Source of the DNA: Eledone cirrhosa
Lineage: Eukaryota
Length of the DNA stretch: 64,000 bases
Reading direction: 5' to 3'
NCBI GenBank assembly: GCA_964016885.1
Contig: OZ024741.1
Location: 180,048,001 to 180,112,000 of the forward strand
Shown: piece after piece, positions 57,081-57,936 of the stretch
Numbering within the stretch: the first letter of the stretch is position 1
Layout of the letters: each line of letters opens with the position of its first letter
Translations under genes and position numbers: made by a program
The notes under the pieces: model-generated
What the model saw: the letters and a program-made list of their open reading frames with translations, nothing else
Told to the model about the DNA's origin: nothing
Databases searched by the model: none

Positions 57081-57936
57081 TATTTAGAAACACACAGATA
57101 CATGCGGACACACACATATATACATGAATGCATCCGCACCCAACTGTGAGTTAAGGGTGCCAACTTCACCGATGTTGCTCAATGAATGACTGGGACAGAC
57201 CAATTCAGTTTGAACCAGACTGAACCAGTATCAGAGTTAAAAATACATTATGAAGAGAGAAGAAACATTTAGATATAATTAGTAATAAAATGTATCATAC
57301 CTAAACTGCTCCTAAATTCCTCGACTACGTAGTTTCGTGGCATAAACAAAAACAATATATCAAAGATATAGAGTCCTTGCGAGGTCTGCCAACTTATCAA
57401 GAGGATACCTCGTTTTACTAGTCTCAAGAACGCGTCTACACGACGTGAGAAAGAATCCCAAAAGGCGGAGGGGGAGATAGTCACGCGATATAACGGTCGA
57501 GAAACAGAGCTAAGCCTCTTATAACCACGAAGAAAATACCACGGAGGCGGAGGGGGTATTCATATCGAGGCCGTGGAAGAGGTAGTGAAGAAGGCGAGAA
57601 GTATGAGTAATAGAAGCTTTCCAGTTGTCCCCACACTTCAAAGATTGCTCGACCAGAGGGAGTTATTAATATATTTAGAAACACACAGATACATGCGGAC
57701 ACACACATATATACATGAATGCATCCGCACCCAACTGTGAGTTAAGGGTACCAACTTCACCGATGTTGCTCAATGAATGACTGGGACAGACCAATTCAGT
57801 TTGAACTATATCTATATCTTTGATATATTGTTTTTGTTTATGCCACGAAACTACGTAGTCGAGAAATTTAGGAGCAGTTTAGGTATGATACATTTTATTA
57901 CTAATTATATCTAAATGTTTCTTCTCTCTTCATAAT
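57081..57936 (-). mobile_element. Non-coding hammerhead element C-D-x-C-inverted D (591-nt unit)
   Basis: C at 57081-57215 and 57672-57806; D at 57247-57371 and inverted at 57812-57936; embedded in (TA)n. Confidence 0.85.
57318..57405 (-). ncRNA. Type I hammerhead ribozyme, U3-A8 variant, 57-nt stem II
   Basis: tcctc TTGATAA gt(t)ggca...tgccac GAAA ctacgtag TC gagga. Confidence 0.8.

What the first reader, a model, noticed from the sequence alone, without database searches (positions are those of the whole stretch)
57081..57936. 591-nt unit with intact variant hammerhead, partial tandem and 5' inversion
On the minus strand the order is: inverted D, C, body, hammerhead/D, C. The ribozyme has all three stems, a GUC cleavage triplet, compensatory U3-A8 in place of C3-G8, and a 57-nt stem II. 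The repeat copies differ by only about one base each, so the insertion is recent. A more-than-unit-length copy is what reverse transcription of a circular or multimeric RNA would leave (inference).
Basis: partly seen in the sequence, partly recalled or inferred. Interest (0 to 1): 0.8.

Follow-up and report, generated by a model that had tools for sequence, protein, structure and literature searches.

The report
Two-armed, RNA-edited hammerhead retrozyme
This is one of thousands of copies of a 591-base non-coding repeat with a conserved hammerhead (self-cutting RNA) motif that sits in TA microsatellites as two back-to-back arms ending at two fixed points, and its mutation pattern suggests that a Penelope-type retrotransposon enzyme likely copies one small, probably circular and probably A-to-I-edited RNA from both cut DNA ends.

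Summary
The window holds one insertion of a young non-coding family: 750 exact ribozyme matches and thousands of insertion ends. It is a non-LTR retrozyme with a Penelope-like (PLE) footprint. Nearly all arms end in (TA)n at one of two sites 165 nt apart. In 81 of 86 two-armed insertions one arm uses each site; none uses one site twice. An autonomous PLE of this genome follows the same rule (5 of 5). Variants are usually shared by all units of both arms, and the cut site is seamless (0 of 319 indels). This points to one monomer, likely a circle, copied repeatedly. Those shared variants are A>G-biased (11 vs 3 T>C; control 7 vs 20), as ADAR editing would leave. The ribozyme is conserved in a 76%-identical subfamily; U3-A8 is already known. 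Cleavage, circles and the partner enzyme are not shown. This copy has one full ribozyme, so it is a product. The scan found this pattern before in other families, here and in other genomes.

The parts
57078..57806 (-). Main arm, 729 nt = one full 591-nt unit plus 138 nt; 3' end at site T (unit 138) in (TA)n
57216..57806 (-). The 591-nt non-coding unit (unit position 1 = 57806). Folded as a circle: -168.8 kcal/mol, z -6.05 against 40 shuffles; antisense z -1.1
57811..57940 (+). Inverted second arm, 130 nt (unit 435-564); 3' end at site S (unit 564) in (TA)n; holds only the 3' half of the ribozyme
57807..57810 (.). 4-nt joint between the 5' ends of the two arms
57318..57405 (-). Type I hammerhead motif: 5-bp stem I, U3-A8 core (57400-57394), 57-nt stem II arm (57393-57337), GAAA, palindromic stem III (57333-57324), predicted cut after C17 at 57323
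   Evidence: conservation
57261..57313 (-). Predicted hairpin ending about 18 nt upstream of site S (site S lies at 57243 inside the main arm)
   Evidence: prediction
57680..57743 (-). Predicted long G-U-rich hairpin ending about 11 nt upstream of site T (57669; second copy 57089-57152 before 57078)
   Evidence: prediction
57078..57242 (-). The 165-nt stretch between site S and site T: counterpart of the PLE 'tail', present on one arm only
   Evidence: tail concept from PMC8557442, PMC11167929
57295..57303 (-). Splice-donor-like site (AG|GTATGA, cut 57301/57300) 22 nt after the predicted cleavage site; weak hint of use
56959..57077 (.). (TA)n target, one flank
57941..58190 (.). (TA)n target, other flank

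Best explanation
This is one insertion of a high-copy, protein-free repeat family with a conserved hammerhead motif (a non-LTR retrozyme), likely mobilised by the reverse transcriptase/endonuclease of a Penelope-like element from a probably circular monomer RNA. Inferred cycle: tandem copies are transcribed. Two ribozymes pair through the palindromic stem III and cut out a 591-nt monomer that is ligated to a circle. ADAR edits some of its paired adenosines. A PLE protein, probably a dimer, cuts both strands of a (TA)n tract. One DNA end primes at site T and the other at site S, 165 nt upstream, on the same RNA. Each is copied round the circle for a variable length, and the two cDNAs are joined 5' to 5' at short microhomologies. 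Shown in DNA: family size, (TA)n targets, two fixed ends, one-of-each pairing, variants shared by all units and both arms, A>G strand bias, conservation of the ribozyme. Inferred: cleavage, circle, editing, identity of the enzyme. The window copy has a single full ribozyme, so it is a product of the cycle and could not release a monomer by itself.
For: Family: 1048 candidates, 40 scored, all about 99% identical, tandem period 591; 750 exact ribozymes; 1101 T-ends and 2581 S-ends. Independent short-read contigs show TA loose ends at 57243 and 57669 and joints going back 590-591 nt. Ends: in 127 loci, 77 of 81 closed inverted pairs are S+T, 0 are S+S or T+T, 4 have another end. One search adds 4 S+T and 1 other: 81 of 86. 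The older subfamily has the same two ends. PLE footprint: partial tandem + inverted 5'-truncated copy + one-sided tail (PMC8557442, passages); two internal RT start sites, AT-rich targets, both strands cut and extended, predicted dimer (PMC11167929, parts 1-2). An autonomous RT + GIY-YIG family here with a minimal hammerhead (5772 exact) shows S+T in 5 of 5 resolved inverted insertions. Monomer bottleneck: 35 private variants are in all covering units of one insertion, 20 of them in both arms (124 insertions). At sites covered 3 or more times: 104 all-unit, 93 single-unit, 6 partial in 57 loci. 0 of 319 pieces have an indel at the cut site, against 1.5% per 15-nt bin elsewhere. Editing: private all-unit A>G 11 vs T>C 3 (expected share 0.38, p=0.0025); single-unit control 7 vs 20; Fisher p=0.0023; 5' G under- and 3' G over-represented at the 32 sites. 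Ribozyme: 1 of 43 positions differs between young and old subfamily against 110 of 556 overall, P=0.0009; 146 of 147 pieces from 72 end-selected loci keep all 13 core bases. Sense-strand circle z -6.05.
Against: No autonomous partner with homology was found: 50 GIY-YIG loci show no similarity to the unit apart from one nested copy and two weak microsatellite-like hits; 17 of 201 loci from the family searches carry PLE ORF pieces, of mixed families. The 165-nt tail is much longer than the 30-40 bp in print. With the 5 composite loci kept, partial variants rise from 6 to 30 (62 loci). L130 shares an ordered pair of unit-specific variants between its arms, which a monomer circle cannot give. A/G direction between old and young subfamily is not significant (21 vs 12; T/C 18 vs 15). 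The A>G test rests on 14 events. In the folded circle, stems I and III of the ribozyme are not formed. Only 35 of 51 old copies keep an intact core. In print, 8 of 9 predicted Xenopus retrozyme dimers did not cleave in vitro (bioRxiv 2026.07.22.740005), and ribozyme cleavage was not needed for PLE insertion in vitro (PMC11167929).
Confidence: 0.72

Rival explanations
1. Same element and enzyme, but the template is a linear uncleaved multimer read from a few genomic tandem arrays. Gene conversion then homogenises the units, and the ribozyme plays no part in insertion.
For: PLE RT starts internally on unprocessed RNA and does not need cleavage in vitro (PMC11167929). A seamless cut site is also expected here. 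L130 shares ordered unit-specific variants between arms. No expression data on record.
Against: Conversion or multimer templates should leave many partial variants; there are 6 partial against 104 all-unit in 57 loci. 20 private variants span both inverted arms. The ribozyme is conserved across subfamilies.
Confidence: 0.17
2. Template is a linear monomer cut by the ribozyme, and arms longer than one unit arise by template jumps from its 5' end to its 3' end.
For: It gives the same monomer bottleneck as a circle.
Against: No indel at the cut site in 319 pieces. 5' ends do not pile up at unit 485: 1 exactly at 485 among 25 ends spread over 471-504.
Confidence: 0.06
3. The cycle is as in the best explanation, but the A>G bias comes from transcription-associated DNA mutation at source loci, polymerase errors or selection for G-U pairs, not from ADAR. 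This rival concerns only the editing step.
For: No matched RNA/DNA data; small counts; no significant direction between subfamilies.
Against: Single-unit variants, which collect RT errors and DNA mutation, show no such bias (7 vs 20). The per-base A>G rate is about six times the T>C rate. Neighbour preference fits ADAR (preference recalled). A>G sites are somewhat more paired than other A (0.68 vs 0.56, no test made).
Confidence: 0.3
4. A dispersed satellite or foldback DNA element spread by DNA-level recombination, or an assembly artefact beside TA tracts.
For: TA tracts are error-prone; raw reads over this junction were not examined.
Against: Fixed 3' ends with random 5' ends, one-of-each pairing in 81 of 86 insertions, strand-specific structure and mutation bias, the same ends in independent contigs.
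Confidence: 0.03

Closest known systems
Metazoan non-LTR retrozymes (Cervera and de la Pena 2020, PMC7229834, parts 2-3 of 6 read; Li, Clavereau and Pollet 2026, bioRxiv 10.64898/2026.07.22.740005, parts 1-3 of 5 read)
   Same: Non-coding tandem units with one type I hammerhead each, GC under 50%, no LTR/PBS/PPT seen, highly self-paired predicted circle, PLEs in the same genome.
   Different: 591 nt against 170-400 nt in the 2020 paper (within the 51-972 bp range of the 2026 preprint); 57-nt stem II arm; U3-A8 core. The parts read describe neither two-armed insertions with two fixed ends nor edits fixed in DNA. No pLTR homologue found here, whereas 24 of 57 Xenopus families matched known elements, nearly all PLEs.
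EN+ Penelope-like element insertions (Craig et al. 2021, PMC8557442, passages; Frangieh et al. 2024, PMC11167929, parts 1-2 of 4)
   Same: Partial tandem, adjacent inverted 5'-truncated copy, extension on one end only, microsatellite or AT-rich targets, two internal RT start sites, hammerhead upstream of them.
   Different: No ORF; extension 165 nt instead of 30-40 bp; both arms can be multimers; one-of-each pairing counted here as a strict rule.
U3-A8 hammerheads of Schistosoma Cercyon PLEs and other genomes (PMC4209133, passages; PMC3088659, one passage)
   Same: U3-A8 in place of C3-G8; weak palindromic stem III thought to act as a dimer.
   Different: Those are minimal motifs with a 7-8-bp helix II; this one has a 57-nt arm and lies in a tandem non-coding unit.
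L1 twin priming and ADAR-edited retrocopies made by L1 (PMC11702581, outline and passages)
   Same: Both DNA ends prime reverse transcription, giving a 5' inversion; A-to-I edits can be copied into DNA (3 of 235 pseudogene insertions in cultured cells).
   Different: In L1 the second primer lands next to the end of the first cDNA and the parts barely overlap. Here both start sites are fixed, the arms overlap by whole units, and the edits appear to accumulate in a self-propagating lineage.

Membership tests
Non-LTR retrozyme | Tandem non-coding units each with a type I hammerhead | tested here: met
Non-LTR retrozyme | No RT/EN coding capacity | tested here: met
   no ORF of 120 aa or more inside the unit (the two ORFs that touch its edge run over the TA tract)
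Non-LTR retrozyme | Highly self-paired monomer RNA | tested here: met
   circle z -6.05, antisense -1.1 (prediction)
Non-LTR retrozyme | Self-cleavage | not testable with these tools
   motif and conservation only
Non-LTR retrozyme | Expressed as circular RNA | tested here: inconclusive
   indirect support from shared variants; no direct RNA data
EN+ Penelope-like element (autonomous) | ORF with RT and GIY-YIG endonuclease | tested here: not met
Non-autonomous PLE derivative | Partial tandem, inverted 5'-truncated copy, one-sided tail | tested here: met
   tail is 165 nt, not 30-40
Non-autonomous PLE derivative | Homology to the pLTR of an autonomous PLE | tested here: inconclusive
   none in 50 GIY-YIG loci of 10596 candidates; sample too small to exclude
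Type I hammerhead | Three helices round the conserved core with NUH triplet | tested here: met
   stem III stable only as a dimer; no Rfam gathering hit
Type I hammerhead | Loop 1-loop 2 tertiary contact | not tested
   the long stem II arm makes the usual contact unclear
LTR retrozyme (plant type) | Type III hammerhead in LTRs, 4-bp TSD | tested here: not met
   type I topology, tandem units, (TA)n targets

The most novel reading that the evidence does not exclude
A 591-nt circular RNA lineage that evolves partly by RNA editing. ADAR edits made on one circle are written into every unit of both arms of the next insertion by a dimeric Penelope enzyme that primes both ends of one break at two fixed sites 165 nt apart on that same circle. 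Thousands of insertions would then be a readable record of PLE two-ended priming, rolling-circle reverse transcription and heritable A-to-I editing.
Probability: 0.45. Interest if true: 0.8.

Novelty: new variant of a known kind. Interest (0 to 1): 0.6.

Why it matters
How PLEs make their tandem/inverted insertions with a one-sided tail, and how animal retrozymes move, are open questions named in PMC8557442 and in the 2026 preprint. This family gives countable answers: one arm at each of two sites, both arms from one RNA, and a monomer bottleneck. It also supplies a small defined template (591 nt, two predicted start sites) for an in vitro PLE assay. If the A>G bias is ADAR's, RNA editing is a source of inherited change in this lineage. 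The element class and the U3-A8 core are known; the value lies in the mechanistic read-outs. Searches that found no paper on them: A-to-I editing + retrotransposon copies + reverse transcribed + genome + ADAR: 0; Penelope + pLTR + twin priming: 0; retrozyme + RNA editing + rolling circle + reverse transcription: 3, none on this by title or abstract start; hammerhead + retrozyme + octopus: 2 listed, none on this by title or abstract start. The library lacks most subscription papers, and no supplements were read.

Tried and rejected
Rfam at gathering score: no match in the window. Partner search: (a) a short-stem-II version of the same ribozyme gave 11 matches against 2 controls; several are family copies matching through a second core-like word, and of the five loci looked at none held a new ribozyme; (b) the unit against 50 GIY-YIG loci gave no homology; (c) PLE ORFs near family loci: 17 of 201, mixed families, taken as incidental nesting; (d) the PLE ORF beside the old copy in L111 has unrelated ends. 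RNA: no RNA holder listed. In run X6 (kind not on record) two unrelated long contigs leave the unit exactly at the donor-like site 57301/57300, and one 79-nt contig of depth under 5 carries clustered A>G on the ribozyme strand. In the genome all 20 copies lacking the donor G are point variants that continue as usual. A probe from the mixed loose-end cell found nothing. These are weak hints only and are not used as evidence. 5' ends at the cleavage site: no pile-up. Free circular permutation of copies: rejected. A period-4 circle for L130: does not fit. A>G ratchet between subfamilies: not significant. An ATG in stem II, as in the anole PLE: it opens only a 25-codon frame (read) and is absent in the old copy L111. 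Rows dropped: L152 and L118 (two insertions each); L152, L118, L195, L147, L205 from one of the two counts; L218 had no alignment passing the filter. Target-site duplications cannot be read inside (TA)n.

Full report
Observation. C occurs at 57078-57215 and 57669-57806 (offset 591, one mismatch). D occurs at 57243-57372 and, inverted, at 57811-57940. The insertion is a 729-nt arm on the minus strand (one unit plus 138 nt), joined 5' to 5' through 4 nt to a 130-nt arm on the plus strand, between two (TA)n tracts. The hammerhead is type I with a 5-bp stem I, a U3-A8 core, a 57-nt stem II arm and GUC ending at 57323. Stem III is 3 bp inside a 10-nt palindrome that is unstable as a hairpin and stable (-12.9 kcal/mol) as a duplex of two copies. 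Rfam found nothing at gathering score.

Family. The own genome (3.0 Gb) gave 1048 candidates for the unit body; the 40 scored were about 99% identical and often in tandem with period 591. Exact patterns counted 750 ribozymes, 1101 ends at unit position 138 (site T) and 2581 ends at position 564 (site S), with 0 in each reversed control. An older subfamily, 75.8% identical on average, gave 2377 candidates. Contigs of independent runs show TA loose ends at both sites and joints going back 590-591 nt. I did not identify the organism; earlier scan notes call this genome octopus-type, which I did not test.

Architecture. In 127 loci (chosen by body, ribozyme, S-end or T-end), 77 of 81 closed inverted pairs had one arm ending at S and one at T. 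None had the same end twice, and 4 had another end. Extending seven loci added 4 S+T pairs and 1 other: 81 of 86. Of 47 single arms, 45 ended at S or T. 5' ends are spread over the whole unit, and most of the joints inspected have overlaps of 0-14 nt, a few a short filler. This is the PLE footprint of partial tandem, inverted 5'-truncated copy and one-sided tail (PMC8557442, passages). It matches the in vitro finding that a PLE protein cuts and extends both strands of AT-rich DNA and starts at two internal RNA sites that bound the tail (PMC11167929, parts 1-2 of 4). The tail here is 165 nt rather than 30-40. An autonomous family in this genome, with RT and C-terminal GIY-YIG and a minimal hammerhead (5772 exact matches), also lands in (TA)n and shows one-of-each ends in 5 of 5 resolved inverted insertions. 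It shares no clear homology with the unit, so it is a candidate partner only.

Template. Units differ by 0.21% within an arm, 0.24% between the two arms of one insertion and 1.39% between insertions (67 loci). In 124 insertions, 35 variants private to one insertion were present in all its covering units, 20 of them in both arms. At sites covered three or more times the spectrum was U-shaped: 104 all-unit, 93 single-unit and 6 partial in 57 loci, or 105, 117 and 30 with five composite loci kept. A new variant can reach every unit of both arms only through a one-unit bottleneck or later conversion, and the scarcity of partial variants argues against conversion as the rule. None of 319 pieces spanning the predicted cut site has an indel there (about 5 expected from the rate elsewhere), and 5' ends do not pile up at it. 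That disfavours jumps on a linear monomer. A circular monomer copied by rolling-circle reverse transcription from both DNA ends is the simplest reading (inference). L130 is an exception: two adjacent units with their own variants recur in both arms, as a multimer template or conversion would give. The sense strand folds far better than shuffles as a circle (z -6.05; antisense -1.1), with ribozyme stems I and III not formed in that fold.

Editing. Among private all-unit variants, A>G on the ribozyme strand outnumbers T>C 11 to 3, although T sites are 1.6 times more exposed (p=0.0025). Private single-unit variants, which collect RT errors and later DNA mutation, give 7 to 20 (Fisher p=0.0023). 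The 32 all-unit A>G sites have G on the 5' side in 3 of 32 (background 28 of 132) and on the 3' side in 10 of 32 (24 of 132), in line with ADAR preference as I recall it. An A run in stem II opposite a U-rich strand shows stepwise A-to-G states across subfamilies. Against this: the counts are small, and old-versus-young majority differences show no significant direction. Edited retrocopies made by L1 are in print (PMC11702581, passages). Strong ADAR activity in cephalopods is recalled knowledge.

Ribozyme. Between young and old subfamily 1 of 43 ribozyme positions differs against 110 of 556 overall (P=0.0009); the long arm itself varies (12 of 44). The old subfamily was reached through a ribozyme-intact copy, so families that lost the motif could be missed, and individual old copies decay (35 of 51 intact). 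In loci chosen by their ends, 146 of 147 pieces keep the core. U3-A8 is known in nature and reported active in vitro (PMC3088659, one passage) and occurs in about 1,300 Schistosoma PLE-type motifs (PMC4209133, passages). Activity is not guaranteed: 8 of 9 predicted Xenopus dimers did not cleave (bioRxiv 10.64898/2026.07.22.740005, parts 1-3 of 5).

Verdict. The element works like, and meets the testable sequence features of, a metazoan non-LTR retrozyme (PMC7229834, parts 2-3 of 6) with the insertion footprint of a non-autonomous PLE. Cleavage, circular RNA and the partner protein remain untested. The class and the core variant are known. Interest 0.6.

Noticed in passing
window 20200-45500: About 22 kb of G/T-rich tandem repeats with GC skew near +0.88 and stop-free frames of up to 3394 codons (Pro/Thr-rich, mucin-like on the minus strand); minisatellite or giant repetitive exon.
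   Followed up: no
window 9623-11020 (+); L065 1222-2964 (-): LINE-like ORF fragment (Tx1-like by recall). A close relative sits right at the 3' end of a copy of the hammerhead-bearing PLE family in L065.
   Followed up: no
window 54601-54702 / 54899-55000 and 55051-55273: 102-nt inverted repeat (99%) round a TA tract, beside short tandem duplications of SINE-like sequence.
   Followed up: no
window 56096-56161 / 58178-58243; 56182-56271 / 56696-56777: Short duplicated fragments next to TA tracts on both sides of the insertion; not part of the element.
   Followed up: no
L064, L070, L076, L280-L309: Young autonomous PLE family (RT + GIY-YIG, CxxxCxxC linker motif) with a minimal hammerhead, 5772 exact matches, two 3' ends about 45-65 nt apart, one of each in 5 of 5 inverted insertions; the sequences just before its two ends loosely resemble sites S and T.
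   Followed up: partly
L061, L062, L066, L068, L069, L072: A second young PLE family in (TA)n whose copies all end at one site, including both arms of the inverted insertion L066; no hammerhead seen in its roughly 210-nt 3' region. A natural control for the two-site rule.
   Followed up: partly
L130 / L272 (G000:C12:14090583-14098601): 13-unit two-armed insertion with an ordered pair of unit-specific variants in both arms, out of register; multimer template or gene conversion.
   Followed up: partly
window 57301/57300; run X6: Two unrelated long contigs leave the unit exactly at a splice-donor-like site after the ribozyme, and no genomic copy matching the probe does; possible splicing into host exons.
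   Followed up: partly
runs X4, X5: 620-621-nt contigs that wrap round the unit at about 99% identity and depth about 8 in runs labelled with two other organisms; origin unclear.
   Followed up: no
L152, L241, L195, L205: An insertion duplicated with its flanks (L152), and copies of different subfamilies lying beside or within one another (L241, and by their mixed variants L195, L205).
   Followed up: no
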